Below are positions 12,594 through 59,910 of a stretch of 64,000 nucleotides of DNA, piece by piece. Within the stretch, counting starts at the first letter, position 1, and every line of letters begins with the position of its first letter. The position numbers and the translations under genes were made by a program. The notes under the pieces are model-generated. The model was not told the DNA's origin and did not search any database. It saw only the letters and a list, made by a program, of their open reading frames with translations. Source of the stretch: a virus (Duplodnaviria > Caudoviricetes); IMG/VR virus record IMGVR_UViG_3300032030_000007, positions 1 to 64,000 of that record, one strand, 5' to 3'.

Positions 12594-12717
12594 ATTGCTT
12601 ATGTGTTATTTTAAGATTAACATATTCTCCGGTTTCTTTATTATATACCTTACAATATTTATTAAAGAAATAAACAGGATCTTTAAGACACCTAATATAT
12701 TCTTTCTTTATGTTCAT
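12529..12717 (-). CDS. Small protein resembling the N-terminus of T4-type large terminase
   Basis: EYIRCLKDPVYFFNKYCKVYNKETG. Confidence 0.5.
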   Translation of the reverse strand: MNIKKEYIRCLKDPVYFFNKYCKVYNKETGEYVNLKITHKQYERFIKFKNSQNSRQTRQAKL

Positions 12718-13256
12718 AATTTAAGTATTTCTTTTATTTTATGATAATTCTTTCTTGTTATTCCAGTCCAAGGATTAGTCTGTACAAAATTCTTTTTCTG
12801 AATATCTAACATATCATTATCATCATCTACTATACAATAATTTAATATAGTAAAATCTTCTTTCATTATTTTACGATATTCTGGATATTTTCCATTTGTT
12901 ATATCTATAAAATATTGAATTTCTTGACCACGATGCCTGCTTTTAGAATATGGAGTAACACCAACTACATAAGGTGCTAATATTTCTAAACCATGTAAGT
13001 GAAATTCTCCTAAACAATTACCATCTCTTATAAAGTCTTCATTATTCTGTTCCCAAGAATTTCCATTTCTCCAAGAAGACGATATGACCAACTTAACATT
13101 ATTGTCTTCACAGAATTTAGCCATTCTATAGCATTCTCTTGTATCAATACTACCATATCTTAATCTATTCAATTTCTTATTTTGTCTCCAACAATCATAT
13201 TGGACACTATTCATAACACCATCAATATCTAAGAATATGATATTATATTCCTTCAT
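12714..13256 (-). CDS. HAD-superfamily phosphatase (Swiss-Army-Knife RNA-repair type)
   Basis: FLDIDGV, VISSSWR, RGQEI, IVDDDNDM. Confidence 0.8.
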   Translation of the reverse strand: MKEYNIIFLDIDGVMNSVQYDCWRQNKKLNRLRYGSIDTRECYRMAKFCEDNNVKLVISSSWRNGNSWEQNNEDFIRDGNCLGEFHLHGLEILAPYVVGVTPYSKSRHRGQEIQYFIDITNGKYPEYRKIMKEDFTILNYCIVDDDNDMLDIQKKNFVQTNPWTGITRKNYHKIKEILKL

Positions 13257-13842
13257 ATCTATTATCTAAATCTTTACAAAGATCATTATATTGTTGTAGT
13301 TCTTCACACTTATTTGGTAAATTATGACATTTTAATAAATGTTGGAATCGTAATTCAAAATTAAGAGCCATTGGATTTTGAAAATATTTACCATTAAGTA
13401 CTTTAATAGCTCTTATTGTTTCTGTTTCTGTAATACCGTCCTCATAATTAGTTTGAACAAAATGATATAACTGTGAGTCAAGCATATCATTATCATCATC
13501 AATTATAACATAATTATCAACTTCTGGATGTTTATCAAGCCATGATTGTATTTCACCACCTCTACCAGTTCCATTATATTTCTTATCAGAAAACCAAGAT
13601 GTAACATCATAAAGATTATCAATAAGCCAATAAAGCATTTTATTTCTTGGACATCGTTTTGTTTTACCAATCATATCATTAATTGTCTTTTTAACATTTT
13701 CACGACGCCAAGAAGATGAAACAATAATTTTAGCTCCTGTTTCATCTACAATCCTTTTTATATATTTAATCTTATTAGCATTAAGATGCCATTTTGGTGG
13801 AATTGTTATGACCCCATCAAAATCAAGAAATATAGCTTTCAT
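13243..13842 (-). CDS. HAD-superfamily phosphatase (Swiss-Army-Knife RNA-repair type)
   Basis: FLDFDGV, IVSSSWR, RGGEI, IIDDDNDM. Confidence 0.8.
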   Translation of the reverse strand: MKAIFLDFDGVITIPPKWHLNANKIKYIKRIVDETGAKIIVSSSWRRENVKKTINDMIGKTKRCPRNKMLYWLIDNLYDVTSWFSDKKYNGTGRGGEIQSWLDKHPEVDNYVIIDDDNDMLDSQLYHFVQTNYEDGITETETIRAIKVLNGKYFQNPMALNFELRFQHLLKCHNLPNKCEELQQYNDLCKDLDNRYEGI

Positions 13843-15624: not shown

Positions 15625-16554
15625 TTAAAAATTCAATTTAAGTTGATTTGTATTTAATAATTTAGGCTTCATTTCAATTATTGTATCAGTTGGTTTTATA
15701 TTGCTAATCAATAATGGAGACTTTGGATCATGTATTTTAAAGTTCTCATCACATTTATCAAAATCTGCTGATGCATAACAATATTTGCATTTATGAAGAC
15801 AAGTATTATAAACACCTATGCACGTATTTGGATAACATAAGCATCCCCATGCCATTTCTGTTCTATTTTGCTTAGGATAGATTCCCATTAAATTCAAAGC
15901 ATGTTCATCGAGGCATCCTGTAACTTCAACACCTTCTAAATCTTTGAATTGTAAACCATTACCACATGTCTGTAATTTGAAATCATATCTATTGCAAATA
16001 TCAAGCATATTCATTATAAGAACTTTCTTTTGAATATTATTAAGTTCAATCATCTCTGGTAAATGTCTTTTGACTTTTTCATAAGGAGATACAAAATTGA
16101 CTACAACTCTATCTGTATAATTATGTAACTCTTTGCATATATTTTCAAATCTTTCAAGTGTCTGAACTTCTTCAAAGTCTTTACAATAAAAGATAGGGTC
16201 AAATCTCCATATTACTTTTTCTTTTCCATATCTTTGAGAAAGTTCTTTGAATGTATAAATAGATTGTTCAAAACTTGGTACTCCAGGTTCAATATCTTTT
16301 CCGTAGCCTGTTATTGTGTAATGAAATATACTTGGAAATTTATCTGTGATATTCTTTAAGTCATGAAGTATTGGAAGATAATCTTTTGAACACCACATAA
16401 TTCCTTCTATATGCTTATTGTCTAATATGATCTTATGAACCATATTAGGGGCAGCAGGATTTCTAAACATTACAAATCCTTCATTAAATCTATTAATTAA
16501 CCAGTCAGAATAAAATGCTGGAATATCTGTTCTAAAATCAATACTAAGTATCAT
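15625..16554 (-). CDS. DUF1848-family protein (radical SAM-like, C-terminal CxxxCxxC)
   Basis: RTDIPAFYSDW, WRFDPI, IGVYNTCLHKCKYCYA. Confidence 0.8.
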   Translation of the reverse strand: MILSIDFRTDIPAFYSDWLINRFNEGFVMFRNPAAPNMVHKIILDNKHIEGIMWCSKDYLPILHDLKNITDKFPSIFHYTITGYGKDIEPGVPSFEQSIYTFKELSQRYGKEKVIWRFDPIFYCKDFEEVQTLERFENICKELHNYTDRVVVNFVSPYEKVKRHLPEMIELNNIQKKVLIMNMLDICNRYDFKLQTCGNGLQFKDLEGVEVTGCLDEHALNLMGIYPKQNRTEMAWGCLCYPNTCIGVYNTCLHKCKYCYASADFDKCDENFKIHDPKSPLLISNIKPTDTIIEMKPKLLNTNQLKLNF

Positions 16555-16944
16555 ATTGTATCTTATCAAATATACTTATAATTTACTCCAAAATAAAATA
16601 TCTAATTGTCCATCAACTGAATGTTCCCAAAGTTCTGGATCATCATCACACCAAATACACTCTTCAAAAATACTATCAGGAATATGTCGTCGCCAAAGTA
16701 CAGTATTTTTCATATTAATAATGTTCTAAAACTTCTTTTCTAATTTTTCTGTATTCTTCTTCCTAATAAGAACCCAATAAAAAATGTTAGAATACAAATT
16801 ATAATGTATAATATAATCATAAAGCTTTATAAAATCTCATTAATAATTTAACGATAACTTTATCTTCTAATTTACCAGTTGCTAAAGTATCCGTAGGAAA
16901 AGATTCAATCATTTTCTTAGTTACTTCTTTCCATTCTTTCTTTG

Positions 16945-22430: not shown

Positions 22431-23879
22431 TTAGTTCAAATCAGCGAACTGATTCTCAATACCTTCAAATGCAGCGATATAAGTTAAGAAGTGCTCTGAC
22501 CAACCTGAGATCTCAGCAGTCCATACACCCTTATAGTTAATACCGTGAGTATGAGCAGATACGTCACAAATGTAGTTGTACTTACCAAATGGACGTGGCT
22601 TATTTGTGCTACCGTGTGATACATCGATATCCTGTGAGTCTGAGAATACGATTATACGAGCATAATCATGAATCTTGTCACCAAGTTGCTTACGAAGTTT
22701 CTCAATACACTGATATGTAAAGATACCACCACCGCCTAACTTATGGTACATAGAATTGATGTCCTGGAACATCTTAAATCCCTTAGAAGGATACTTAATG
22801 TATTCATGTCTCTCTGTACGTGACCAGTCATCACCAGCTGTACATACAAGCTCGAAGTCCTCACACTGGTTAGCCGCAAGCATCGCCATCGCAGCAGCCT
22901 GGTCCATACGGCTGAATATTGAACCTGAACTTGTGATTGAACCCATAGAACCTGAAACGTCTACGATAAACAATGTCTTACCTGGAAGCTTAGGTAGATT
23001 CTCGTAAGTCTTAAGCATAGCATCCTCAATTTCGCGGTCGAAACCAGAACACATACGCATTGCCTTTAAGAAGTCAAGTGGAAGTAGCATTGCGCCCTTA
23101 AGCTCTTTAAGACCCTTCTCAATAACTGGACGTGGTACACCAGCAGTCTGCATGTTACGAAGGTTCATAAGCATAGCCTTACCACCAATCTTACCCTCAT
23201 TGATAAGCTTCTCCCAAACAGCAGATTTCTCTTCGTTTGTGTGAGCATTTGAAAGTAATACCTCCCAAGTCTCTGGTGTCTCAAGTGTACGGTCAGCAAT
23301 CTTCTTATAAAGAACTGCCTCAAGCTGTGTTGTTGGCTTTGGACGAACCATGAACATTACATCACGAAGCTTAATTTCAGCATCACGGTCATACTTTGCA
23401 AAGTGGTACTCCTTAAAGTTATGGAATGCCTCAGCAAGACCCTTCTTAGCAGCATTACAGATAGGACATTTACCATCCATCCAATAAAGTGCCATAAAGT
23501 CTGTTAACATGTCGGCACGAGTGATAATTTTTGGAAGTACATCCTTAACATAAGGACGTGTCTCTTCATGCTTACACATCTGAACAGCAAGGAACAAAGG
23601 TGTATGACGAAGCTTCTGCATAACACGAGCCTCAATTGTAAGATTTGCAACATCCTTTGGATCACAGATAGGTACAAGACGAACAATCTCATCTACAACC
23701 TTCTGACCATCCATATATGCAATGTTCTCCCAAAGCAAGTTAGCAAGAACTGCTCTACGAAGTAATTGGATGTTTGACTGTGCAGCTGCAGCGTTTGTAA
23801 CGCGGCCTGCGATTTCACCAACACTAATCTGATTCTTTTTCAAATCAGTACTCTTCTTTGTGGAATTGAATTTACTCAT
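22431..23879 (-). CDS. Ro60/Rsr-like TROVE domain RNA-binding protein with vWA domain
   Basis: KGLAEAFHNFKEYHFAKY, LRDVMFMVRPKP, PETWEVLLS, MLMNLRNM, MIDAS VDVSGSM, VFSDSQ. Confidence 0.9.
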   Translation of the reverse strand: MSKFNSTKKSTDLKKNQISVGEIAGRVTNAAAAQSNIQLLRRAVLANLLWENIAYMDGQKVVDEIVRLVPICDPKDVANLTIEARVMQKLRHTPLFLAVQMCKHEETRPYVKDVLPKIITRADMLTDFMALYWMDGKCPICNAAKKGLAEAFHNFKEYHFAKYDRDAEIKLRDVMFMVRPKPTTQLEAVLYKKIADRTLETPETWEVLLSNAHTNEEKSAVWEKLINEGKIGGKAMLMNLRNMQTAGVPRPVIEKGLKELKGAMLLPLDFLKAMRMCSGFDREIEDAMLKTYENLPKLPGKTLFIVDVSGSMGSITSSGSIFSRMDQAAAMAMLAANQCEDFELVCTAGDDWSRTERHEYIKYPSKGFKMFQDINSMYHKLGGGGIFTYQCIEKLRKQLGDKIHDYARIIVFSDSQDIDVSHGSTNKPRPFGKYNYICDVSAHTHGINYKGVWTAEISGWSEHFLTYIAAFEGIENQFADLN

Positions 23880-34810: not shown

Positions 34811-35172
34811 ATCTTTTCTGGAGTTGGTCTACCATCTAACCAATCTTCAGTATATTTTTCATATTCTTCTTCAGACATATCTCCTTTTATAAATATCTTA
34901 TAAAGATTATGAAATGTATTTTCAAATGTCTCTAATGAACTTTTATCATAGTCTTCATATGGATCACCTTTGAATATTGGTTCATTTTCAGCTAATTCTT
35001 TACTACATATAATAGCCTGTACAGATTCATCATTTGATATTCTCCAATATCCTCTTGCTTGTTGTTCATTAAGAGTTATATACATTGGATAATATAACTC
35101 ATATTCATCATTTGGCATACATACATAAAATACTTTCATAAAATCAATTTCATTAATATATTTATAATTCAT
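34798..35172 (-). CDS. Hypothetical protein
   Basis: ORF; likely start MNYKYI. Confidence 0.6.
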   Translation of the reverse strand: MNYKYINEIDFMKVFYVCMPNDEYELYYPMYITLNEQQARGYWRISNDESVQAIICSKELAENEPIFKGDPYEDYDKSSLETFENTFHNLYKIFIKGDMSEEEYEKYTEDWLDGRPTPEKIWEL

Positions 35173-35968
35173 ATTTTTTATGGAAATCATTATACAGATG
35201 CATGAATTCTGATGTAAAGAAACGTGTAACATCATGAACTAATTGATCATCTATTTCCATTCCTTCAGTAGCACATGCTAATGCTCCAGCTAATCCACCT
35301 TCTGTATCAGTATCACCACCTAATGATATTGCTTTACGAATACAGTCTTCATAAGAATTTGAATCTCTCCAACATATCAATACAGCAGGAACTGAATTCT
35401 GACATGTACATTCAAATTTATGTACTCTTTTTAATTCATCATAAGATTTTGAAAGATCATATCTAAATTGTCTGCTAATATATTTCAATATATCTTTTTT
35501 AGTATTGCCTTCCTTAGCAAAGAATATTGCAGCTGCTATAGCTTGTGCACCTTTAATTCCTTCAGGATGATTATGAGTTACTTCAGCAGATATCTTAGCT
35601 AACTCCATGCATTCATCAATATTATTTGCAACATAAGCAACTGGTGGAACTCTCATAGCAGATCCATTACCAAATGAATTATATGGATCTCTACGTTTTT
35701 CATTAATCCATTTCTTAAATGTTGTCTCAAGATCATAATGCCATAATCCATAATTGTATTTATTACCCCAATAATGGAACTTATCAATTAACGCATCCTT
35801 TGACCTATCAGTATTCATAAGCCAATCAGCAACAGCAATCATACAAATAGAATCATCAGAAGGATGAGTTCTATCATACATAAATTCAAAATTATAATCC
35901 TTAGTTGGTTTTTGTGCATAATACTGTCCAATACTATCACCAACAATTTGTCCAATTATACCTTTCAT
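35162..35968 (-). CDS. ADP-ribosylglycohydrolase (DraG/ARH family)
   Basis: GDSIG, SDDS, GNGSAMRV, THNHPEG, GGDTDT. Confidence 0.92.
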   Translation of the reverse strand: MKGIIGQIVGDSIGQYYAQKPTKDYNFEFMYDRTHPSDDSICMIAVADWLMNTDRSKDALIDKFHYWGNKYNYGLWHYDLETTFKKWINEKRRDPYNSFGNGSAMRVPPVAYVANNIDECMELAKISAEVTHNHPEGIKGAQAIAAAIFFAKEGNTKKDILKYISRQFRYDLSKSYDELKRVHKFECTCQNSVPAVLICWRDSNSYEDCIRKAISLGGDTDTEGGLAGALACATEGMEIDDQLVHDVTRFFTSEFMHLYNDFHKKYEL

Positions 35969-36012
35969 AACTTAATTAATTTAATTATTTTATATGTTAA
36001 ATATTTTATTAT

Positions 36013-36807
36013 TTAAAGTTCATATTTATTGTGAAATTCATTTAATATATATATAAATTCATCAGGTATATATCCATCTTCACATAATTTATATAAAAAT
36101 TCATCATTAATACTAGTTTCTTCTTTAGCATTACATATTGATCCAGCTATACATGCTTCAGTATCGGCGTCTCCACCTAGACTTACAGCCTTACGAATAC
36201 AATCTTCATATGATGTACTTTCATACCAACAAGTTAAACATACAGGTATGGATACTTGACAAGTACAATTAAATTTATGCGTATTTTTTAAATCCTTATA
36301 TGATTGTAATTTATAATCTGTATTATTTAATATATAATTAATGATTTCATCTTTTGTTTTACCATTACGATATAACCATATTGCAATAGCAACTGTAATT
36401 GCACCTTTAATACCTTCAGGATGATTATGAGTAACTTCTGCTGATGTTTTTGCTAAGTTAATACATTCTTCCAATGAATTTGCAACCCAGCCTACTGGAG
36501 ATACTCTCATAGCAGAACCATTACCATAAGAATTATATGGTTCACGTGTATCTGAATTAACCCAATTTTTAAATTTTGGTGCATACCCATAATTATATTT
36601 ATTACACCAATATTTAAGTTTATTGATTAATTCATCTTTTGAACGATCTGTATTCATTAGCCAATCAGCTACTGCTATTGTACATGTACTATCATCAGTT
36701 ACATGTGATTCATTCGTTATTAATTCAAAATTATAATTATGTGTTGAATGAAATTCATAATTTTGCCCAATAAGATCTCCAACAACTGCACCTATAATAC
36801 CTATCAT
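36013..36807 (-). CDS. ADP-ribosylglycohydrolase (tandem paralogue)
   Basis: GDLIG, TDDS, GNGSAMRVSP, THNHPEG, GGDADT. Confidence 0.92.
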   Translation of the reverse strand: MIGIIGAVVGDLIGQNYEFHSTHNYNFELITNESHVTDDSTCTIAVADWLMNTDRSKDELINKLKYWCNKYNYGYAPKFKNWVNSDTREPYNSYGNGSAMRVSPVGWVANSLEECINLAKTSAEVTHNHPEGIKGAITVAIAIWLYRNGKTKDEIINYILNNTDYKLQSYKDLKNTHKFNCTCQVSIPVCLTCWYESTSYEDCIRKAVSLGGDADTEACIAGSICNAKEETSINDEFLYKLCEDGYIPDEFIYILNEFHNKYEL

Positions 36808-38031: not shown

Positions 38032-38524
38032 TCTTTATATTGACCCATTGACAGAATTTTCCAAATGTATCATGTATTGCAACTTTTGGAAGATATTCAT
38101 TAATGATTAGACAAAAACATATCTTACCTTTATGTTTTACCATCTTAAACTCATTTCCATTAGCATCAGCAAAAGAAAACGAATTATCATCAGGCATTTT
38201 CTTTAATATGTTTTTTGATTGATTAATGTAATGAGATGGCAACATTGATAACATAGCTGTATGTTCATCAATAGATTTATTGTCTAATTTACGAGCTAAA
38301 TATCTTTTGCCTTTATGCTCCCATTCTTCATCTGTTTCTGCAAACTGTTTATTTACAATCATACAAGCATTCTGATAAGTGACAATAGTCATGTCAGAAT
38401 CATCATATTCATAAACACGTCTATCATCACCATCTTTCCAAGGAGACATTTGTAATAGATATTTATCCATTACTTTATATATGTTTCCAGTGTTATTAGA
38501 TTGCAAATATGTACTATTATCCAT
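37988..38524 (-). CDS. Hypothetical protein
   Basis: ORF. Confidence 0.65.
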   Translation of the reverse strand: MDNSTYLQSNNTGNIYKVMDKYLLQMSPWKDGDDRRVYEYDDSDMTIVTYQNACMIVNKQFAETDEEWEHKGKRYLARKLDNKSIDEHTAMLSMLPSHYINQSKNILKKMPDDNSFSFADANGNEFKMVKHKGKICFCLIINEYLPKVAIHDTFGKFCQWVNIKNVKPIFNETDKKYI

Positions 38525-39138
38525 TATTTCATATATAAATTATTTTCTTTTATAATGTTATATACTCCCCTATTAAAATATAGTTCAACGTTTTTGTTTT
38601 GTTTAATAAAATTTCTAATATCTGTAGAATGCATTTCAAATCCTGGCATAAGATTAACATAAGCCTTGCATTTGCAAATTTGACTAAAATATTTTTCAAA
38701 TTCTGGTTTGATTGTTCCAACAATTATCATTCTATCAATATACTTTGATAAAATTTCTGTTGAATTATACCAAGATCCATATAATATCTCATGATAAGTT
38801 TCTTCAGTCAAAATCCAAAGAAAATCTTTTCCTATAGATTTATCATTATCATTAGAAAGATATTCTAACATATCATATGTATATGTCCAATCATGCTTAA
38901 ATTCAATATCATTTACGATTACATTAGTATCTTCTGTTGATAATGGTTCAAACATTAATTTTGACATATAATACCTATAAAGAATCGGAGTTGAATCTTT
39001 CTTATTTGGATTTTGCTTAGTTGGAATTATATGAATGCTATTAATTGATTTTGATATATCTGAATTAATAACACTCATAATAACATTAGCATGACCAATA
39101 TGTGGTGGATCAAATGAACCTAAAAATATTGCATTCAT
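38524..39138 (-). CDS. nadD: Nicotinate-nucleotide adenylyltransferase
   Basis: GSFDPPHIGH (HxGH), YTYD, HSTDIR, V..II.ENNLY. Confidence 0.85.
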   Translation of the reverse strand: MNAIFLGSFDPPHIGHANVIMSVINSDISKSINSIHIIPTKQNPNKKDSTPILYRYYMSKLMFEPLSTEDTNVIVNDIEFKHDWTYTYDMLEYLSNDNDKSIGKDFLWILTEETYHEILYGSWYNSTEILSKYIDRMIIVGTIKPEFEKYFSQICKCKAYVNLMPGFEMHSTDIRNFIKQNKNVELYFNRGVYNIIKENNLYMK

Positions 39139-44748: not shown

Positions 44749-45657
44749 TCAACCCTTATTAATATCAATAACTACAGGTAATCCTTTTCGTTTATATTTT
44801 GTTCGTCTTATACGGCCAATAACATCATCAACAGTATGATAAGTTACTTTATCATTATTTACATCATATTTCTTATGTAGTTCATCCATTGCAATCCGAT
44901 ATGCTTCTGGATGTTTTCCTCGATATTCAAGATATGTCTGAATGATATCATCAACTTTCTTATAAGCATCTACATTTTTATCTTTAGCAAATGCTGGAGC
45001 AATCTGCCCCATGTCACCAAGATCATTAACACCATTACCATCTGTTGGACGAATACCTAATGCATAATCAAGAGCTTGTACTTTATTAGTGTTTAATACT
45101 CCAGATTCATTTTGATAATAATCTCTAATATATTGAGCTAACTCATAAACTTCATGTTTCCAAAGACCTCCAATTGGATTTAAATCTGCAACATCTCCAT
45201 GAATTGTAAAGAATCCAAGATAATGCTCAGTAAGATTATCAGTATCCATTACTAATCCCTTGAAATAATTTGCAAGATCATAAAGATATATCATACGAAG
45301 TCTAGCCTTAATATTTCCCTGTCCAATAGTTGTTGGAAGATGACGTTGAGAACATACACCTTTCATAAGAATAAACTCATGCTGTAAATTCTCAGTCCAA
45401 TATTGTCCTTCTTTACAGAATGCTTTCATACAAGCATTAGCTGAATTATTTTCATCAATACTATTTGATGTACATGGAAGACTTACACCAAAAAATTTCA
45501 AATCAGGGTTTCTTCTTTCAACTTCTGAACAAATAGCAGCAGTTACAGTAGAATCAATTCCACCAGAAATACCAAGAATCATTGCCCAAAGATTATTATC
45601 TTCAAGATACTTCTGAGTTTCTTGCACCATTGTTTCAAAAACTTTTGCGTAATTCAT
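44749..45657 (-). CDS. nadE: NH3-dependent NAD+ synthetase
   Basis: GISGGIDS, GNIKARLRM, TDNLTE..LGFFTIHGD, PIGGLWK. Confidence 0.93.
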   Translation of the reverse strand: MNYAKVFETMVQETQKYLEDNNLWAMILGISGGIDSTVTAAICSEVERRNPDLKFFGVSLPCTSNSIDENNSANACMKAFCKEGQYWTENLQHEFILMKGVCSQRHLPTTIGQGNIKARLRMIYLYDLANYFKGLVMDTDNLTEHYLGFFTIHGDVADLNPIGGLWKHEVYELAQYIRDYYQNESGVLNTNKVQALDYALGIRPTDGNGVNDLGDMGQIAPAFAKDKNVDAYKKVDDIIQTYLEYRGKHPEAYRIAMDELHKKYDVNNDKVTYHTVDDVIGRIRRTKYKRKGLPVVIDINKG

Positions 45658-45806
45658 ACTTTATTCTTTTTATTAATTTTATTTTAATTTTTCTGTATAT
45701 CTAAACGGATAATGACAATGATTGCACTTAAATACTTCACCCTCTTCATCAATAGCTTCATCAAGAGTAAATGAAGTTTCTTTACCACATTTTGGACATT
45801 TTATTT

Positions 45807-46004
45807 TCATACGTTATAATATTTAATAATGTTTTCAATTACATACCACCAACATACACCTTCAGTACAAGACCAAAGAAGTGTTCCAAGAAAATGGGCA
45901 ATTTTATTATCAGTAAACCCGTTATAATAATTTACATACATATTTCTGACTCTTATTGCATTAATCAAAATTAAAATGCAAATAATAAAAAATATAATAT
46001 TCAT
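45807..46004 (-). CDS. Small membrane protein
   Basis: Hydrophobic ORF. Confidence 0.55.
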   Translation of the reverse strand: MNIIFFIICILILINAIRVRNMYVNYYNGFTDNKIAHFLGTLLWSCTEGVCWWYVIENIIKYYNV

Positions 46005-46007
46005 AAT

Positions 46008-46334
46008 TTAATAAGTTGCTTTAAAATCAATACCATTATTTGGAAGATACTTACAATACCAATAATTATATCCGTTGTCTTCAATATGTTTGTATACTTT
46101 AACTTTAGGATTATAGTCTAATTGTATGATAGATCCAATTTTTGGTTTATTTGGTGTCTTTTTAATAATCTGTTCATTAATGCATTCTTTTTCATAAACA
46201 AATATATCTTTATCATCAATTAAATATTCTGTAATATTATGACCAGATCTAATCAATTTAAGCATTCGTTGTGCTAAATCATTTTTATCTGTACCTAGCC
46301 AACTTAAAATCGTAGATTTTGTTATCATATTCAA
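46008..46334 (-). CDS. Hypothetical protein
   Basis: ORF. Confidence 0.6.
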   Translation of the reverse strand: MNMITKSTILSWLGTDKNDLAQRMLKLIRSGHNITEYLIDDKDIFVYEKECINEQIIKKTPNKPKIGSIIQLDYNPKVKVYKHIEDNGYNYWYCKYLPNNGIDFKATY

Positions 46335-47584
46335 TTAATATATTTTAATCCATCTTCACCAGGTTCTCCTTTTGGATCTCCATGGTTTAATGAGATAGGA
46401 ATATTCAGTTCATAACATGCATGATTGAACTCCTGATTATCTCCCATATGTTTTCCAAAATCATCAGAAATCTTAATTGTAAGATACCAAGACTGATTAG
46501 AATTCATACGGCAACGAGACATCTTCATAACGATATTCTCTGCATCATATTTTGTTCCATCAGGAGCATATACATCACATGTAAGATTTGTTCCAATTCC
46601 AAATGAACACTTGATTCCTCTTTCCTTACAATATTGTAAGATCTTAACAGCTTTTGGAAAATCAAGTGCATTAGAGAATACGATTGTTTTTGTATGATAA
46701 TCAATTCCTTTATTTATATAGAAATTAATTGTCTTATCAGTAAATTCATATTCATCTCCTGAATCCTGACGAACACCATCAAAAAGTTTAGCCTGTTTTA
46801 ATGAGAAGTTCTTGAAGAACACATCTGTTGTGTATGTATCTGAAAGAGCAATACCAAGATCTCCATCATATACATCTACCCAGTTTTCAAGAGCTATATA
46901 ATTTGCAGACTTATATCCATACTGAGCACCATGGAACATAAACCACTCGTGAGGGTGAGTACCAATTGGCTTCATATCATACTTCATTGCAAAATGTACG
47001 TTTGAAGTACCTACACAAGTCTTAGAATTTTGTTTCAAGTATTCACAAACCTTATCTTGAACTTCATAATTGAAACGGCGGCGTGTTCCAAATTCTGAAA
47101 ATAGCATTCCCATAGAATTCGCAAGATTAACCTTTGCTTCAAGCTTAGACATTGTAAGCTCCCAGTTAATAGGTTTATCTTCATTATTTACCTCAGGAAT
47201 AGCATACATACAAGGAATTTCATACAAAGAAGCCTTATAGCATTTATCTGTTACATCCATACAAAGTACACCTTCATCATCAAGATATACTCTAATCTTA
47301 TTAAATTCAAATCGGAATGAATACAACCACTCCCAATAATACTGTGCAATAAAATCTACCCTGTGTGAAGTAAGTAACCAATTAAGCTCAGGAATTGTAA
47401 GTTTAGTATTATTACAAATATCCCTAAGCATCATTTTAAACTTCTTCAGAAATTTTGGAGTACGTTTAATTTTATTCCTATCCTTAAATGTAAATGTACA
47501 TTCAGCATCAGGAAATTTCTTCATATAAGCATACGATGTAGTAAACTTATATAGATCTGTATCAAGTATTGAAAATTTCATCAT
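46331..47584 (-). CDS. pncB: Nicotinate phosphoribosyltransferase
   Basis: LDTDLYKF, EFGTRRRF, GTSNV, GTHPHEW, ALSDTY, GVRQDSGD, FGIGTNL, KISDD.GK. Confidence 0.95.
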   Translation of the reverse strand: MMKFSILDTDLYKFTTSYAYMKKFPDAECTFTFKDRNKIKRTPKFLKKFKMMLRDICNNTKLTIPELNWLLTSHRVDFIAQYYWEWLYSFRFEFNKIRVYLDDEGVLCMDVTDKCYKASLYEIPCMYAIPEVNNEDKPINWELTMSKLEAKVNLANSMGMLFSEFGTRRRFNYEVQDKVCEYLKQNSKTCVGTSNVHFAMKYDMKPIGTHPHEWFMFHGAQYGYKSANYIALENWVDVYDGDLGIALSDTYTTDVFFKNFSLKQAKLFDGVRQDSGDEYEFTDKTINFYINKGIDYHTKTIVFSNALDFPKAVKILQYCKERGIKCSFGIGTNLTCDVYAPDGTKYDAENIVMKMSRCRMNSNQSWYLTIKISDDFGKHMGDNQEFNHACYELNIPISLNHGDPKGEPGEDGLKYIN

Positions 47585-47589
47585 ATTAT

Positions 47590-47657
47590 TTAATATATAC
47601 TTTATGAATATTTAAAGCTTATTTTTATAGTTAATATATACTTTATGAATATTTAAA
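47590..47657. repeat. 27-bp direct repeat between pncA and pncB
   Basis: TTAATATATACTTTATGAATATTTAAA at 47590 and 47631. Confidence 0.8.
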
Positions 47658-48366
47658 TTGCTTTAATATTGTCATGAGAATTAATGAAATCATTAAGAGC
47701 AGTACCTCCATCAATTGAAACAGTTCCATTCATAAGAACACTTATATTGAACTTCTTCCAGTGATTCATAAGGTTCTTCATAGTTTCCATTACACAATAA
47801 TCACCAGCAATACCGCATACTACAATATTGTTATTGATAATTCTGCAACCTGAAGAAGATTCACAATTTGCAAAATAACAGTTCTTTACATGAGGTGGAT
47901 CATTAGGATGCAAGTGATGGAATGTTGCAAGATGCTCAAACGCGCCATACTCTTCACGGTCAACTACTGTACCCTTATCAACAACAGTAAATGGTATTCG
48001 CATTTCAATAAGACCATCATAAAGTTCTTTAGCAATCTTTTCGCCATCAGATCCCTGAACACAATGCGCAGGCCATTGACCACCATTTTCCTTAAATGAC
48101 ATATGTTTCTTTGGATGATGATCACGAGTCAAAATAACCTGGTTAATCTTATTGCGATTTGCTTTGATGTAATCCAAAATTGGCTTATTGATATTTTCTC
48201 CACCAGGTACATAAAGAGCTCCATTTGGATCACCAAAATCAAATTGGTCATCTACAATAATAACACTAATTTGATTATCCAATTTAGAACCAGTGTTCTT
48301 TACTTTAAACTTCTTTGCATTGTTCTTACGAACATCATTCTTAATGTTTTTCTTGTCTGTATACAT
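47653..48366 (-). CDS. pncA: Nicotinamidase (isochorismatase family)
   Basis: VDDQFDF, GALYVPGG, TRDHH, WPAHCVQGS, GIAGDYCV. Confidence 0.92.
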   Translation of the reverse strand: MYTDKKNIKNDVRKNNAKKFKVKNTGSKLDNQISVIIVDDQFDFGDPNGALYVPGGENINKPILDYIKANRNKINQVILTRDHHPKKHMSFKENGGQWPAHCVQGSDGEKIAKELYDGLIEMRIPFTVVDKGTVVDREEYGAFEHLATFHHLHPNDPPHVKNCYFANCESSSGCRIINNNIVVCGIAGDYCVMETMKNLMNHWKKFNISVLMNGTVSIDGGTALNDFINSHDNIKAI

Positions 48367-49193: not shown

Positions 49194-49199
49194 AAATTG

Positions 49200-49582
49200 T
49201 GGACCCAGACAGATTCGAACTGTCGTCTTAATAACCGTCATACTAAAACTTGTTACATGCTTCTTAGAAGTTTCTATCTTCAAAATATCTAGTTTCGTAC
49301 TATTCCAGAAAACCAGAAAACTTGGAGGTACACTTGAATTGAATAGCCAAAAGCTCCTTCCGCTATGTTTGTGAGACTTCTGTTGCCCGACCCGTAGGTT
49401 CTCACTGCGCCGGCTATGCTTATTTATAACCTAACTAATTAAAATAGTATCCCTGAGGGATTAAGCAGCCATCCTGTAGAAAGTATCTTCTTCAGCATTT
49501 ATTGTTTTTGATTCTTTAACGACATAATCAAGTCGACATGATTTTAATACTCAAATTACTAATCAAATACCAAAATGAGCCC
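49200..49582 (-). ncRNA. ssrA: tmRNA (383 nt), tag (A)AEEDTFYRMAA*
   Basis: Acceptor GGGCTCA/TGGGTCC-A with G3.U70; T arm GACAG-TTCGAAT-CTGTC; tag ORF 49496-49461 after AATAAAT ending in AA-stop. Confidence 0.9.
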
Positions 49583-50449
49583 TTATTTAAATAAAATTTT
49601 TCTTCCTTTTTTCCACCCTAAATTAATATAGTAATCTAAATTTTCTTTTTTAATTTTTTTATTAATTTTTTCTTCTAAATTATAAATCCAACATGTATTA
49701 AGTTGATTATTTGTTTTTCTATTTTTTGCAGCTATACTTAATTTTTGTTTATGTTCTTCAGAATGTTTGCGTCCTTTATGATAAGGTATAAATTCTCCAT
49801 TAATAATTAAAGGATCATCTTTATATAACATTTTAACGTTATTATAATTATCTTTATGCTTACATAATATTTTTCCTTTATTAAAAAATAATAATTCACC
49901 AGATATATATCTAGGATCATCTTTATTTACATAGAATTTATTTCCATTTTTATCAATAACACAAACTTTATTTTCAAATTGTTTTTTTAATTCACCAGTC
50001 TCAAATCTTTTATCATTATTTTTTACTAAATAATGATTATTATTTTTATCAACCGCTGGTGTTAATCCATAAGATAATGTTCGATATTCACCAGATATAT
50101 ATCTAGGATCATCTTTAGCCATTAAAATTTGTTCACCAGTAATTGTATTTCTAACAGGAAATAAACCAACTGTTTTTATACCACCTCCACCTAGTACTTC
50201 ATTATAACAATTATTATCCTTTATTAAAACTTCATTTACAATATCTTCTTCATAGTTTAAAGCTTCTTCTCTTGAATTAAAATATTTTAAAATTTCTTTA
50301 GAAAAATTTGAAATTCCATATTTTTTATAAGCTCTATGTAAACGATGACCAGAACCCATATATCCATCATTTAAATTATTAGTAGAATGAATTCCATAAT
50401 AAAAATGATTATTAATTAAATTTATAATTTTATAAAAATAATGATACAT
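49583..50449 (-). mobile_element. Free-standing GIY-YIG (Seg-like) homing endonuclease with NUMOD3-like motif
   Basis: YFYKIINLINNHFYYGIHST..DGYMGSG; KDDPRYISGE repeats; KGRKHSEEHKQKLS. Confidence 0.88.
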
Positions 50450-55506: not shown

Positions 55507-55577
55507 TAATCCCAATAGGAATCAAACCTATACCTATTCTTTAGGGGAGAATTATGCATTCATTACACCATAGGATC
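55507..55577 (-). tRNA. tRNA-Arg(CCT), somewhat degenerate
   Basis: GATCCTA/TGGGATT acceptor; ATTCT-CCCCTAA-AGAAT; T loop TTTGATT; C33 instead of U33. Confidence 0.65.
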
Positions 55578-55947
55578 ATACATCACCTCTTAATTTCAAT
55601 GTATTATATAACTCTTCGATATGATCAAATAAAGTTTTGTAATATCTTCCATAAGTAGTTTTCCAAAACCCATCTTTATCATATTCGTATCTTGTTATAT
55701 ATTCATAAAGATTTTCTCCTTTATTCAACAAATCATAATAATACTTAATATCTTTTATAGTCCAATATAGCATATCATAATTTCCGTGTTCTATTGGACG
55801 ATCCCACCCTTCAGTATGAAATAACAAAATATGTAAAGCATTTCTATATTTGTAAATACCACCACGTTGAATACCAAATTTTTTGCAATTACGATTTTTT
55901 GGTATTTTATTCCAACCAAATTTTCGTTTGTCTTTTAATGCTTTCAT
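55576..55947 (-). CDS. Hypothetical protein inside the tRNA array
   Basis: ORF. Confidence 0.6.
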   Translation of the reverse strand: MKALKDKRKFGWNKIPKNRNCKKFGIQRGGIYKYRNALHILLFHTEGWDRPIEHGNYDMLYWTIKDIKYYYDLLNKGENLYEYITRYEYDKDGFWKTTYGRYYKTLFDHIEELYNTLKLRGDV

Positions 55948-55971: not shown

Positions 55972-56054
55972 AGCTTATACTGAGAATCGAACTCAGATCT
56001 CCACCCAAGATGGTGTTCTCCATCGTCTGTGATTTACCATTAAACTATATAAGC
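55972..56054 (-). ncRNA. tRNA-like RNA with elongated non-canonical anticodon arm
   Basis: GCTTATA/TATAAGC acceptor, D and T arms intact; GATGG-AGAACA-CCATC in place of a normal anticodon arm. Confidence 0.7.
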
Positions 56055-56059
56055 ATATG

Positions 56060-56241
56060 TAGGGATGATGGGATTCGAACCCACGCTATGTTTAAGGTGG
56101 TACATAAAACGCGCTTCCTTACTCGAGTTTCACCTCTTTTCAGTGCTTCCGCAAACTTAACTCCTGGATTTCTCCTTCAAGACATTTTCCACCACGACAC
56201 TCGTTTTATCGCGCTCTGTCCAAGTTCTGAGCTACATCCCT
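56060..56241 (-). ncRNA. 182-nt tRNA-like RNA with ~105-nt insertion replacing the anticodon loop
   Basis: AGGGATG/CATCCCT-A, GCTC..GAGC D arm, GTGGG-TTCGAAT-CCCAT; insertion closed by ATAAAACG/CGTTTTAT. Confidence 0.75.
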
Positions 56242-56250
56242 ATATATAAG

Positions 56251-56491: not shown

Positions 56492-56635
56492 AAATGCGGC
56501 TACGCAATTTATTTTTACAAGGAGCCGTAACCTATCTCCTCAACCTTTATCCTTTGGCATCTGCAATTGCATTGTACACTACAATATACAAATAAAGCTT
56601 TAATTGAGAACCTTGCAAGTAACCTAATCAAGCAT

Positions 56636-56698
56636 TCAGTGGATTCGAACCAGCATCCCCTCTAACGGGAGGTATTTTACCCTTAAACTATCGTAGTC
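56636..56698 (-). pseudogene. tRNA core remnant lacking the adjacent 3' acceptor strand
   Basis: TAGTTTAAGGGTAAAA, CCTC-CCGTTA-GAGG, TGG-TTCGAAT-CCA. Confidence 0.5.
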
Positions 56699-56718
56699 TT
56701 TTTCGGCATCCTCAATTG

Positions 56719-58878: not shown

Positions 58879-59263
58879 TATCTATCATTCTTTGTGTTTG
58901 CTGTTTTAAACGTGATCTTCGTAATTCTCGCCCGCGTCTCTTGATTGATTTATTTAGTCTTCGTTCATAAATGTCTCCCCAACGAGAATCAAAACCAACT
59001 AAATTGTTTCCTTTATAAAGAACACCAGTAGTCTTAAATTCTTTAAGAAGCCTACGATTTCGTTTCTTATTAGGATGACGACAATTATTTAATGTATCAT
59101 TTAATGGATTAAATTTTTGTTCTGTTGTATATGAATAATCAAAATCAGAAGTATCACCAGGCTTATATTCCTTCCAACCAGTCTTAAGACCTTGTGGATA
59201 TTCTGTTACTTCTTTATTATGCTTATACTTATATCTCGAATTAAATGACTTACTCATAATCAA
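58868..59263 (-). CDS. Basic, Arg/Lys-rich hypothetical protein
   Basis: KKRNRR, KRRGRELRRSRLK. Confidence 0.6.
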   Translation of the reverse strand: MIMSKSFNSRYKYKHNKEVTEYPQGLKTGWKEYKPGDTSDFDYSYTTEQKFNPLNDTLNNCRHPNKKRNRRLLKEFKTTGVLYKGNNLVGFDSRWGDIYERRLNKSIKRRGRELRRSRLKQQTQRMIDNEI

Positions 59264-59910
59264 TACTTAACTACATAACATCTAAAATATTTATACCAAA
59301 ATTCAATCAACTTGCGCTTCCATTTCTTAGGAGCATAAAGTTCAATAGTCTTACGATGGTTGAATGCCCATTTATAATTATCAATATCATCAATAGGAAT
59401 CCATTTAACGGAATCTACTTCATTTTCCTCTCCACCTTCACGTTTTACATATGATGGCTTAATCTTACCAAGAAATGCACGATGACGAATAGTTACATTT
59501 CCGTTATTACATTCCTCAGGTTCTGTCTCAACATGAACAACTTCAAGATCATCCAAATCAATTCTAAATCCACATTCCTCAAGAATCTCTCGAGCAATAC
59601 CTTCCTTAGAATTTTCAAATCTTTCAAGGAATCCACATACAGCATTCCAACATCCTTGATAATCTGGAGTACCTGGACCACGAAGATTTGCAAGAATAGA
59701 ATACTTACCATCTACAATTGCATATATAAAACCAGATACAGCAACAAATCGTCCAGAGAAAACTGTCTTTGGTTTACCTGTGCATTTATACGTTTCTTTC
59801 TTTGACTTATTAGTTACTAATTGTTCAACATCCTCAGGGAGCCATGCCTTATAAGGAAAATTCTTACCGTACTTTTCTAAATTCTCTTGATTAATTCCTT
59901 TGAAAACCAT
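59260..59910 (-). CDS. Nudix hydrolase (ADP-ribose pyrophosphatase-like)
   Basis: Nudix box GFLERFENSKEGIAREILEECG; WAFNH. Confidence 0.88.
   Translation of the reverse strand: MVFKGINQENLEKYGKNFPYKAWLPEDVEQLVTNKSKKETYKCTGKPKTVFSGRFVAVSGFIYAIVDGKYSILANLRGPGTPDYQGCWNAVCGFLERFENSKEGIAREILEECGFRIDLDDLEVVHVETEPEECNNGNVTIRHRAFLGKIKPSYVKREGGEENEVDSVKWIPIDDIDNYKWAFNHRKTIELYAPKKWKRKLIEFWYKYFRCYVVKY

What the first reader, a model, noticed from the sequence alone, without database searches (positions are those of the whole stretch)
56060..56241. 182-nt tRNA scaffold carrying a ~105-nt structured, GGA-rich cargo in place of the anticodon loop
Seen: intact acceptor, D and T arms (A after the D-loop GG and discriminator A, both Arg-like). 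An 8-bp stem ATAAAACG/CGTTTTAT encloses a purine-rich insert with five GGA motifs, small hairpins, a possible pseudoknot (GTGGTG with TACCAC) and a GGTGG-AAA-ATG TCT TGA minigene. It seems too short for a group I/II intron. Inference: a new ncRNA class, such as a tRNA-stabilised decoy for anticodon nucleases, a protein sponge, a Ro60 partner, or an unusual intron needing the phage RNA ligase.
Basis: partly seen in the sequence, partly recalled or inferred. Interest (0 to 1): 0.72.

Follow-up and report, generated by a model that had tools for sequence, protein, structure and literature searches.

The report
Non-decoding arginine-tRNA-shaped phage RNA
A giant rumen phage carries, among its arginine tRNA genes, a conserved 182-base RNA that keeps the body of an arginine tRNA, holds a folded ~100-base domain that pairs with and buries the old anticodon, and so most likely acts as a tRNA look-alike rather than as a decoder.

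Summary
Minus strand 56241-56060 is a 182-nt tRNA-framed RNA with a 7-bp acceptor stem, D arm and T arm. The 8-bp AUAAAACG/CGUUUUAU helix, five GGA and GGUGG/CCACC are all present.

I found eight homologues in Arg-tRNA clusters of related rumen phage contigs. They are 75-97% identical; the flanking gene is 75-81%. Compensatory changes support the acceptor, D and T stems, the 15-48 Levitt pair, two small hairpins and a 2-bp helix beside an AGUA/GAA (S-turn-type) loop.

The insert is better described as a giant variable-region domain. Upstream of it lies a relic anticodon arm with ACG (Arg) at positions 34-36, but with A33. Its 5' half pairs with an internal CGU-containing strand. That long-range helix is kept better (97% of cells paired) than the relic arm (82%).

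Rumen RNA-library contigs carry the insert joined to both tRNA halves. One joins at the predicted mature 5' end.

Intron, tmRNA, YrlA-type Y RNA and CsrA-sponge readings fail their defining features. The minigene is not conserved. The closest known kind is phage T4 RNAC/RNAD. The partner protein is unknown.

This scan had already noted this stretch and a close relative's cluster on other DNA.

The parts
56060..56241 (-). Whole 182-nt tRNA-shaped RNA gene. It lies 8-9 nt after tRNA-Arg(ACG) and 5 nt before the next tRNA-like gene. No CCA is encoded.
   Evidence: The covariance model R1 finds one full-length copy per related record at 164-232 bits; the next-best hits are ordinary tRNAs at 39 bits or less.
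56235..56241 (-). Acceptor stem, 5' strand (AGGGAUG). It pairs with 56061-56067.
   Evidence: Pairs 5-68 (AU, GC, CG) and 6-67 (UA, AU) change on both sides. An RNA-library contig joins exactly at 56241.
56060..56067 (-). Acceptor stem, 3' strand (CAUCCCU), plus the discriminator at 56060. The discriminator is A here and U in L011 and L015.
56213..56232 (-). D arm GCUC/GAGC with a 12-nt loop carrying GG-A (A20). G15 forms the Levitt pair with C at 56085.
   Evidence: Three of the four D-stem pairs show double changes. The Levitt pair is G-C in 7 sequences and A-U in L015 and L055.
56195..56211 (-). Relic anticodon arm CGAUA-AAACGAG-UGUCG. ACG sits at tRNA positions 34-36 (56202-56204), with A33 instead of U33.
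   Evidence: MFE fold. 82.2% of cells are paired across 9 sequences, with one double change; the arm is absent in L055. With the domain deleted in silico, ARAGORN calls L015 tRNA-Arg(acg).
56202..56209 (-). 5' strand of the long-range helix (AUAAAACG). This is the last three stem bases plus loop bases 32-36, so it includes the anticodon.
   Evidence: It pairs with 56104-56111. 97.2% of cells are paired, with one double change. The chance of such an 8-mer complement is 0.4%.
56104..56111 (-). 3' strand of the long-range helix (CGUUUUAU). It starts with the Arg codon CGU, opposite anticodon ACG.
   Evidence: An alternative partner, AAAAUG (56180-56185), appears in the MFE fold.
56189..56193 (-). 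GGUGG. It pairs with CCACC at 56096-56100. This is a pseudoknot if the long-range helix forms, or the base of a giant variable arm if the relic arm forms.
   Evidence: Invariant in 8 sequences. L055 has GGUGUC/GGCACC two bases out of register in the alignment, which keeps the helix with a G-C to U-G change.
56096..56100 (-). CCACC, the partner of GGUGG.
56166..56175 (-). Hairpin 1: GGA-GAAA-UCC (GNRA loop).
   Evidence: L015 has GAG-GAAA-CUC, so two pairs change on both sides.
56144..56153 (-). Hairpin 2: UGC-GGAA-GCA (GNRA loop). It begins the strongly conserved 3' half of the domain.
   Evidence: 96% paired, no double change. RNAalifold offers UGCG/CGCG as an alternative.
56118..56143 (-). 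A 2-bp helix C-G / Y-R enclosing GAAAA, hairpin 3 (GAG-GUGAAA-CUC) and GAGUA. The GAA and AGUA strands match the bulged-G (S-turn, sarcin-ricin/loop-E type) consensus.
   Evidence: Y-R covaries (C-G in 6, U-A in 3). The third pair of hairpin 3 covaries (U-A in 5, G-C in 3). The motif assignment rests on established knowledge and was not tested.
56085..56095 (-). UUAAACAUA, conserved in all 9 sequences apart from a single-base insertion in L015 (UAUAAACAUA), plus the 15-48 Levitt partner. It is single-stranded in both folds.
56068..56084 (-). T arm: GUGGG-UUCGAAU-CCCAU.
   Evidence: Pair 50-64 is U-A in 7 and C-G in 2.

Best explanation
This is a non-decoding RNA descended from a phage tRNA-Arg(ACG) gene.

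How it is made: it is transcribed with the Arg tRNAs as one precursor and cut out by the tRNA-processing enzymes. It folds into a normal tRNA elbow: acceptor and T stack, D arm, and the 15-48 Levitt pair.

What differs from a tRNA: a ~100-nt domain grown from the variable region replaces the decoding end. The 3' strand of that domain (CGUUUUAU, which carries the cognate codon CGU) pairs with the old anticodon loop (AUAAAACG). GGUGG/CCACC ties the domain to the variable region. The conserved half of the domain displays GNRA-type loops and an S-turn-type internal loop.

How it probably works: it cannot read codons. It most likely works by being bound, as a tRNA(Arg) look-alike that occupies a protein recognising the tRNA body. 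My first guess for that protein is a host tRNA-targeting defence factor. The second is the phage's own RNA-repair or Ro60 machinery.

Shown: the gene, its conservation, the helices, and its presence in RNA libraries with the insert retained.
Inferred: descent from tRNA-Arg, processing by tRNA enzymes, lack of decoding, and above all the partner and the decoy action. I put about 0.3 on a defence-factor decoy.
For: Conservation:
- Nine family members, one per record, always inside Arg-tRNA clusters.
- Four homologues are 90-97% identical to the window, against 75-81% for the adjacent gene. That is similar to the real tRNAs at 90-95%.

Structure:
- 96.3% of cells are paired.
- 11 pairs show double changes, against 3.8 +/- 1.4 in shuffles (0 of 500 reach it).
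- The covariation score is 0.185, against 0.061 or less when partners are slid.
- The Levitt pair covaries.

Arg descent:
- A20 is present in all 9 sequences.
- ACG sits at positions 34-36 in 8 of 9.
- The tRNAs closest to model R1 in most loci are the cluster's first tRNA-Arg(ACG) genes.
- ARAGORN calls the L015 deletion construct Arg(acg).

Not decoding:
- A33 replaces the near-universal U33.
- The relic arm has mismatches in 4 of 9 sequences and is gone in L055.
- The long-range helix that buries the anticodon is kept at 97%.

RNA libraries:
- Contigs 99-100% identical to the window bridge both insert junctions in runs from four studies.
- One contig joins at exactly position +1.

Context:
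- The phage encodes an RNA ligase, two HAD_SAK_2 proteins, a TROVE protein and NAD-salvage genes.
- Published work shows phage tRNAs countering tRNA-cleaving defences (PMC10264068, PMC11464382, PMC11555353).
Against: - No partner is identified, and nothing here tests binding.
- Only nine sequences in about four lineages are available, and seven of them are nearly identical. Most helices in the 5' half of the domain therefore have no independent support.
- L055 has a different 5' half.
- The two folds are near-isoenergetic by nearest-neighbour rules, so the anticodon might be exposed part of the time.
- The folding energy is not better than shuffles.
- RNA-library contigs cannot exclude contaminating DNA, and they give no RNA ends apart from the one joint.
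- The discriminator is U in two homologues, so Arg identity is not strictly kept.
Confidence: 0.55

Rival explanations
1. Partner of the phage Ro60 (a Y-RNA analogue). The RNA binds the TROVE/VWA protein encoded at 22431-23879 and directs it, as bacterial Y RNAs direct Rsr, within the phage's RNA-repair set.
For: - The window encodes a TROVE+VWA protein, and relatives that carry the element do too.
- No YrlA-like RNA lies near that gene, so its RNA partner is unaccounted for.
- Bacterial and phage Y RNAs mimic tRNA (PMC4201824).
- D. radiodurans Yrn1 has its ends at the acceptor-like stem, as here (PMC4201824).
Against: - The element is about 32 kb from the TROVE gene, whereas YrlA genes lie within 4 kb.
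- The Ro60-contact motif GNCGAA(N)G is absent. The element has AAACGAR, and L055 has AAAAGAA.
- Rfam YrlA does not match the element.
- The co-occurrence seen involves close relatives only, so it carries no weight.
Confidence: 0.12
2. Conditional, self-masked tRNA-Arg. The RNA switches between a closed form (anticodon paired to the internal CGU strand) and an open cloverleaf with a giant variable arm. In the open form it is charged or recognised by ArgRS, TadA or a nuclease.
For: - The two mutually exclusive folds lie within a few kcal/mol of each other.
- The masking strand has a second conserved partner, AAAAUG, in the open fold.
- A20, C35 and G36 are retained in 8 of 9 sequences.
- L015 shows a compensatory A-U to U-A change in the relic arm.
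Against: - A33.
- The relic arm has mismatches in 4 of 9 sequences and is absent in L055.
- The alternative partner AAAAUG is not kept in L015 or L055.
- No signal or ligand is evident.
Confidence: 0.1
3. A working tRNA-Arg(ACG) with an outsized variable arm, altered to escape an anticodon nuclease.
For: - The tRNA frame is complete.
- ACG lies in a 7-nt loop at the right place.
- Phage tRNAs with mutated anticodon loops are known to evade nucleases (PMC10264068).
Against: - A33.
- Stem mismatches in half of the homologues, and no anticodon arm in L055.
- The cluster already has two canonical Arg(ACG) genes.
- Known class II variable regions are tens of nucleotides long, not about 100 (PMC7609411 gives more than 10 nt for class II).
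Confidence: 0.05
4. A tRNA gene interrupted by an intron or a small mobile insert. It would be either spliced to give a tRNA (using the phage RNA ligase) or simply a decaying pseudogene.
For: - ARAGORN with introns allowed forces a Ser(aga) call with an 89-nt intron.
- The phage has an RNA ligase.
Against: - The forced model has a 3-bp D stem and ignores the conserved helices.
- No Rfam intron or ribozyme family matches, even at E up to 10.
- The insert is as conserved as the frame and covaries, which is unlike a pseudogene.
- RNA-library contigs carry the insert joined to both tRNA halves.
Confidence: 0.04

Closest known systems
Phage T4 RNAC (species 1, 139 nt) and RNAD (species 2, 119 nt), the stable RNAs of the T4 tRNA cluster
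   Same: - Encoded inside a phage tRNA operon directly after tRNA-Arg.
- RNAC keeps a tRNA T arm (GGGUUCGAAUCCC) and paired ends.
- Non-coding, made from the tRNA transcript, and of unknown role (PMC3014915, PMC9697503).
   Different: - No sequence relationship beyond the generic T arm. R1 scores T4 RNAC at 20.6 bits, like any ordinary tRNA.
- The element keeps a full D arm, the Levitt pair and a relic Arg anticodon.
- It is longer, at 182 nt.
Bacterial and phage YrlA-type Y RNAs (Rfam RF02553), the tRNA-mimicking partners of Ro60/Rsr
   Same: - A tRNA-like module with T and D arms in a non-decoding RNA.
- The genome encodes a Ro60 (TROVE) protein.
   Different: - YrlA is circularly permuted: its ends lie at the anticodon-stem side. 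Here the ends form the acceptor stem.
- The GNCGAA(N)G motif is lacking.
- The element is not near the TROVE gene.
- No Rfam match (PMC4201824).
Canonical tRNA-Arg(ACG) and class II tRNAs with long variable arms (Rfam RF00005)
   Same: - Acceptor, D and T arms.
- U8-A14 and the 15-48 pair.
- A20.
- ACG at positions 34-36 of a 7-nt loop in 8 of 9 sequences.
- The extra domain sits in the variable region.
   Different: - The variable domain is about 100 nt.
- A33.
- The anticodon is complementary to an internal strand.
- Below the Rfam threshold, and not called by ARAGORN.
tmRNA (RF00023)
   Same: tRNA-like ends, with a large and possibly pseudoknotted insert between the D region and the T arm. 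The window also has a true tmRNA at 49197-49582.
   Different: - G3-C70, not G3-U70.
- An intact D arm.
- No conserved reading frame: AUG-UCU-UGA is lost in L015 and L055.
- No tmRNA call.

Membership tests
tRNA (RF00005) | 7-bp acceptor stem, D arm, and T arm with a UUCRAnY loop | tested here: met
   All three stems are paired in 95-100% of cells and show compensatory changes.
tRNA (RF00005) | Tertiary core: U8-A14 and the 15-48 Levitt pair | tested here: met
   U8/A14 are invariant. The 15-48 pair is G-C in 7 sequences and A-U in 2.
tRNA (RF00005) | 5-bp anticodon stem with a 7-nt loop, U33 and a usable anticodon, conserved among homologues | tested here: not met
   - A33 in all sequences.
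- The arm is only 82% paired and is absent in L055.
- The loop bases are complementary to an internal strand.
tRNA (RF00005) | Score above the family threshold, or a call by a tRNA finder | tested here: not met
   Rfam gives 20.5 bits against 29, and on the 3' part only. ARAGORN makes no call without the intron option.
tRNA with a group I (or other self-splicing) intron | A recognisable intron core, with the intron in the anticodon loop so that excision restores a 7-nt loop | tested here: not met
   - No Rfam intron or ribozyme match at E up to 10.
- The insert is about 90-105 nt.
- Removing what the 8-bp stem encloses leaves no anticodon loop.
- The ARAGORN intron model is forced.
YrlA / Y RNA (RF02553) | Encoded within about 4 kb of the Ro60 gene, on the same strand | tested here: not met
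   The TROVE gene is at 22431-23879(-) and the element at 56060-56241(-): same strand, about 32 kb apart. The criterion comes from PMC4201824.
YrlA / Y RNA (RF02553) | GNCGAA(N)G Ro60-contact motif in the stem formed by the RNA ends | tested here: not met
   The nearest words are AAACGAG or AAACGAA in the long-range helix, and AAAAGAA in L055. The motif comes from PMC4201824.
YrlA / Y RNA (RF02553) | A domain resembling tRNA T and D arms | tested here: met
YrlA / Y RNA (RF02553) | Binding to Ro60 | not testable with these tools
   Needs a gel-shift or pull-down with the TROVE protein.
tmRNA (RF00023) | G3-U70 alanine identity and a conserved tag reading frame | tested here: not met
   G3-C70 in all sequences. 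The mini-frame is lost in L015 and L055.
CsrB/RsmZ-type protein sponge | Repeated GGA motifs presented in hairpin loops and conserved | tested here: not met
   - Only the GGAA loop of hairpin 2 presents GGA in a loop.
- GGA 1 is lost in L015 and L055.
- GGA 3 is lost in four homologues.
- GGA 4 is lost in L011.
T4 RNAC/RNAD-like tRNA-cluster stable RNAs (a kind, not a curated family) | Non-decoding RNA encoded within a phage tRNA operon, with tRNA-like paired ends and a T arm | tested here: met
T4 RNAC/RNAD-like tRNA-cluster stable RNAs (a kind, not a curated family) | Sequence or structural homology to T4 RNAC or RNAD | tested here: not met
   - Only the T arm aligns with RNAC.
- The GAGUAAGGAA word shared with RNAD occurs in the window's subgroup only.
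- R1 scores T4 RNAC at 20.6 bits.
T4 RNAC/RNAD-like tRNA-cluster stable RNAs (a kind, not a curated family) | Accumulates as a discrete stable RNA | tested here: inconclusive
   Contigs from six RNA libraries hold it, and four laid runs carry the insert. Contigs cannot show level or ends.

The most novel reading that the evidence does not exclude
The RNA is a bistable, self-masked tRNA-Arg. A built-in CGU codon strand keeps the ACG anticodon closed until a signal releases it, for example damage to the domain, binding of a protein, or competition for the strand. That would give the phage an Arg-tRNA body, usable for decoding or as bait, that switches on only under attack. It would be co-regulated with the Arg-sensing leader reported upstream of the operon.
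Probability: 0.08. Interest if true: 0.9.

Novelty: new variant of a known kind. Interest (0 to 1): 0.6.

Why it matters
T4's tRNA-cluster RNAs have had no known function for fifty years. This element shows the same arrangement in an unrelated giant rumen phage: a tRNA-shaped, non-decoding RNA right after tRNA-Arg.

It also has clearer anatomy. The tRNA elbow is selected for. The origin from tRNA-Arg(ACG) can be traced. The anticodon is buried by an internal cognate codon. The conserved display domain carries motifs typical of protein or tertiary contacts.

This gives concrete, testable constructs for asking what such RNAs bind. It also fits the emerging picture of phage tRNAs as weapons against tRNA-cleaving defences.

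If the RNA turns out to be a decoy or a switchable tRNA, it would be a new anti-defence principle. If it is a Ro60 partner, it would be a new, non-permuted type of Y RNA.

Tried and rejected
Searches that found nothing useful:
- The exact 28-mer in IMG/VR: no match.
- The downstream ORF 55576-55947 in IMG/VR: no relative.
- INPHARED blastn: only generic tRNA matches.
- A genome-contig scan with a 3' pattern: 18 hits in unrelated bacteria, about the number I estimate by chance, and none matched the profile.
- L029 and L051-L054 were chance pattern matches.
- Three different degenerate patterns all returned the same four IMG/VR contigs.
The Logan, ENA and NCBI contigs behind 39 homologues of the flanking protein could therefore not be fetched.

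Readings tested and dropped:
- Rfam at E up to 10: no family for the insert.
- rRNA mimicry or antisense pairing: no significant similarity to E. coli 16S, 23S or 5S on either strand. The 5S-like words GAGUAGGGAA and AGAAGUGAAA are best read as generic loop-E-type words.
- The GTPase-centre mimic reported in a relative's cluster: no such motif in this window.
- T4 RNAC/RNAD homology.
- A YrlA near the TROVE gene.

RNA-library results that carry no weight:
- No contig in the four laid RNA runs skipped the insert. Contigs drop rare variants, so this is not evidence that a spliced form is absent.
- Contig word depth was higher over the element than over the neighbouring ORF in two runs. The tool warns that depth cannot rank genes, so I do not use it.

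Undecided:
- Thermodynamics cannot choose between the two folds.

Full report
**What is there.** On the minus strand, 56241->56060 reads as a 182-nt RNA. Its tRNA frame comprises:
- a perfect 7-bp acceptor stem (AGGGAUG/CAUCCCU) and discriminator A;
- U8 and A9;
- a D arm (GCUC/GAGC) whose 12-nt loop carries GG followed by A;
- a T arm, GUGGG-UUCGAAU-CCCAU.

It lies 8-9 nt after a tRNA-Arg(ACG) and 5 nt before another tRNA-like gene. The cluster's five canonical tRNAs are all Arg: CCU, ACG twice and UCU twice. Neither ARAGORN nor Rfam at its thresholds calls the element. At relaxed thresholds Rfam gives only 20.5 bits of the tRNA model on the 3' part and no other family. An 8-nt perfect complement to positions 27-44 arises in only 0.4% of shuffled inserts.

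**Two folds.**
- Directly after the D stem there is one base and then a hairpin, CGAUA-AAACGAG-UGUCG. That is a 5-bp stem and a 7-nt loop at the canonical place for an anticodon arm, with ACG (Arg) at positions 34-36 but A at 33.
- On this reading the ~100-nt insert lies in the variable region and is closed by GGUGG/CCACC.
It pairs them with CGUUUUAU near the 3' end of the insert. That strand begins with CGU, the cognate codon.
- The two folds exclude each other. By nearest-neighbour energies they are within a few kcal/mol once the 5-bp GGUGG/CCACC duplex (-6.8 kcal/mol) is credited to the long-range fold.
- Overall stability is unremarkable (z = -0.45).

**Source and relatives.**
- The window is an AT-rich (27% GC) uncultured giant phage. 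By sequencing-run labels it comes from sheep, goat and bovine gut.
- It is absent from IMG/VR and INPHARED.
- Using an alignment of those proteins (A1), I found one IMG/VR locus and 27 JGI metagenome loci.
- Pattern scans added three IMG/VR contigs.
- Profile searches then identified eight homologues of the element: L009, L020, L001, L011, L030, L015, L031 (complete as L063) and the diverged L055.
- All lie in Arg-tRNA clusters, one copy per record.
- Some related loci have an Arg cluster without the element (L022), or no cluster at all.

**Conservation.** Against the window, four homologues are 90-97% identical where the neighbouring ORF is 75-81%. That is similar to the bona fide tRNA-Arg(ACG) at 90-95%. 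L015 is 75% identical. L055 keeps the frame and the 3' half of the insert but has a different 5' half.

**Covariation.** On the nine-sequence alignment, the structure with the long-range helix gives:
- 96.3% of cells paired;
- 11 pairs with changes on both sides, against 3.8 +/- 1.4 in shuffles (0 of 500 reach it);
- a covariation score of 0.185, against 0.061 or less when partners are slid by 1-3 columns.

Double changes occur in:
- the acceptor stem (pairs 5-68 and 6-67);
- the D stem (3 of 4 pairs);
- the T stem (pair 50-64);
- hairpin 1 (GGA-GAAA-UCC against GAG-GAAA-CUC);
- hairpin 3 (GAG..CUC, GAUA-GGAA-UAUC, GAA..UUC);
- a 2-bp helix whose second pair is C-G in six sequences and U-A in three.

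The 15-48 Levitt pair is G-C in seven sequences and A-U in L015 and L055, so the L-shaped tRNA core is under selection. GGUGG/CCACC is invariant in eight sequences. L055 has GGUGUC/GGCACC two bases out of register, which keeps the helix with a G-C to U-G change.

The 2-bp helix is flanked by GAAAA on the 5' side and by RAGUA on the 3' side. From established knowledge, this is the bulged-G (S-turn, sarcin-ricin/loop-E type) arrangement AGUA/GAA. I did not test that assignment. The three small hairpins carry GNRA-type loops (GAAA, GGAA, GGAA or GUGAAA).

**Which central helix is selected?**
- The long-range helix is paired in 97.2% of cells. It has one compensatory change (A-U to U-A in L015) and single mismatches in L015 and L055.
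- The relic anticodon arm is paired in 82.2%. It is perfect in four sequences, has one mismatch in four, and is absent in L055, where the loop reads AAAAGAA. It also has one compensatory change in L015.
- At family level the masking helix is therefore the better-kept one. The sample is too small and too closely related to exclude that both folds matter.
- RNAalifold also offers a local alternative, UGCG/CGCG next to a 6-bp AUAAAA/UUUUAU helix. This fits the G-to-A change in L055.

**Origin.**
- A20 is present in all nine sequences. C35 and G36 are present in eight.
- The tRNAs most similar to the covariance model in most loci are the first tRNA-Arg(ACG) genes of these clusters.
- With the GGUGG...CCACC domain deleted in silico, ARAGORN calls the L015 version tRNA-Arg(acg) at default settings. 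It does not call the others.
- I therefore read the element as a descendant of a tRNA-Arg(ACG) gene whose variable region grew a structured domain.

**RNA libraries.**
- Twenty public runs from 12 studies hold part of the stretch, six of them RNA libraries.
- I laid four RNA runs from four studies; all are kept as contigs. They contain contigs 99-100% identical to the window that bridge the 5' junction of the insert (for example 56165-56245 and 56169-56230) and the 3' junction (56089-56163 and 56071-56123).
- One 196-nt contig in run X20 reads 56159-56241, one extra base, then 56077-56188. Its length equals 166 + 30, which is what a k = 31 unitig of a 166-nt circle would give.
- It therefore joins T-loop position C56 to exactly the predicted mature 5' end. 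This could be a circular RNA, reverse-transcriptase template switching, or ligase circularisation. In each case it needs RNA molecules that start at +1, as RNase P processing would produce.
- Contigs cannot show levels, and DNA carry-over cannot be excluded. Expression is therefore likely but not proven.

**Readings tested and rejected.**
- Intron: there is no intron or ribozyme family match. The only intron model is a forced Ser(aga) with a 3-bp D stem. The insert is conserved and covaries like the frame, and it is retained in contigs from RNA libraries.
- tmRNA: the element has G3-C70 and an intact D arm, and the mini-frame is lost in L015 and L055.
- CsrA-type sponge: only one GGA lies in a hairpin loop, and GGA 1, 3 and 4 are each lost in at least one homologue.
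- rRNA mimic or antisense: no significant similarity to E. coli rRNAs. The GTPase-centre motif that this scan reported in a relative's cluster is not in this window.

**Ro60.**
- The window encodes a TROVE+VWA protein at 22431-23879, and two or three relatives carry one too.
- It also encodes an RNA ligase, two HAD_SAK_2 proteins and DUF1848.
- No YrlA-like RNA lies near the TROVE gene, so a distant partner is conceivable.
- By the published criteria (PMC4201824), however, the element fails. It is 32 kb away rather than within 4 kb. It lacks GNCGAA(N)G. It is not permuted as YrlA is. It does not match RF02553; the only YrlA hit in the region is a spurious one spanning two adjacent tRNAs.
- I keep this as a rival at about 0.12.

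**Closest known kind.**
- In T4, tRNA-Arg is followed directly by rnaD (119 nt) and rnaC (139 nt).
- RNAC has a tRNA T arm and paired ends.
- Both are late, stable RNAs of unknown role (PMC3014915, PMC9697503).
- The element shares that placement and architecture but shows no sequence homology beyond the T arm.
- Earlier notes of this scan describe many other phage tRNA-shaped RNAs with inserts, and they name the same closest relative.
- One note covers a close relative's Arg cluster, and another covers this same stretch read in a neighbouring window.
- In my limited searches I found no paper describing this RNA.

**Mechanism, with odds.**
- I commit to a non-decoding tRNA(Arg) look-alike. It is made through the tRNA-processing pathway, and its decoding end is replaced by a display domain that also sequesters the relic anticodon (0.55 for this description).
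- It probably acts by being bound. Three lines make a decoy for a tRNA-Arg-targeting host factor my leading guess, at about 0.3:
  1. the all-Arg operon;
  3. the RNA-repair and NAD genes, together with published cases of phage tRNAs defeating tRNA-cleaving defences (PMC10264068, PMC11464382, PMC11555353).
- After that come a Ro60 or repair partner and a switchable masked tRNA.
- Nothing here tests binding. The function is inferred.

Noticed in passing
window 55972-56054 (-): A second non-canonical tRNA-like gene lies 5 nt after the element.
- Rfam tRNA scores it at 46.7 bits, but with a 17-nt D-loop insertion and a 3-nt 'anticodon loop'. ARAGORN does not call it.
- The MFE fold gives an extended arm ending in GAUGG-AGAACA-CCAUC.
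- L020 has the same gene with compensatory changes in the acceptor stem. Other relatives have a different conserved RNA at this place.
   Followed up: partly
window 56492-56718 (-): This 227-nt ORF-free spacer between tRNA-Arg(ACG) and tRNA-Arg(UCU) is 97% identical to L009 4867-5088.
- It contains a degenerate tRNA-like core with a T-arm-like GGUUCGAAUCC, and a weak Rfam tRNA hit (17.5 bits) at 56638-56690.
- It is probably another conserved RNA gene.
   Followed up: partly
L009 ~6053-6115 (also L001, L011, L015, L031; in L020 after the second tRNA-like gene): A conserved ~62-nt sequence with complementary ends (GUGCUC...GGAGCAC) follows the element in most relatives. It is missing at that place in the window, where ORF 55576-55947 sits instead.
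   Followed up: no
window 56077-56241, RNA run X20: A 196-nt contig is circularly permuted: 56159-56241, one extra base, then 56077-56188. It has the exact length expected for a 166-nt circle at k = 31. It joins T-loop C56 to the predicted mature 5' end. The cause is undetermined.
   Followed up: partly
window 22431-23879 (-): A TROVE (Ro60-like) + VWA protein of 482 aa. No YrlA-type RNA lies within several kb, and the surrounding genes are densely packed.
   Followed up: partly
window 8682-9515, 12714-13842, 15625-16569 (-): A set of RNA-repair-type genes: an RNA ligase (PF09414), two adjacent HAD_SAK_2 proteins and a DUF1848 protein.
   Followed up: no
window 35162-36807 and 38524-39138, 44749-48366 (-): Two tandem ADP-ribosylglycohydrolases, plus an NAD set: a cytidylyltransferase-like protein, NAD synthase, NAPRTase and an isochorismatase-like protein. 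A NUDIX gene lies at 59260-59910.
   Followed up: no
window 49197-49582 (-) and 49583-50449 (-): A phage tmRNA (Rfam 70.6 bits; tag AEEDTFYRMAA) sits immediately next to a GIY-YIG/NUMOD3 homing-endonuclease gene.
   Followed up: no
L022 2623-3050: A related locus has five tightly packed Arg tRNAs (UCU, ACG, ACG, UCU, CCU) but no copy of the 182-nt element. Several other relatives of the flanking ORF have no tRNA cluster at all.
   Followed up: no
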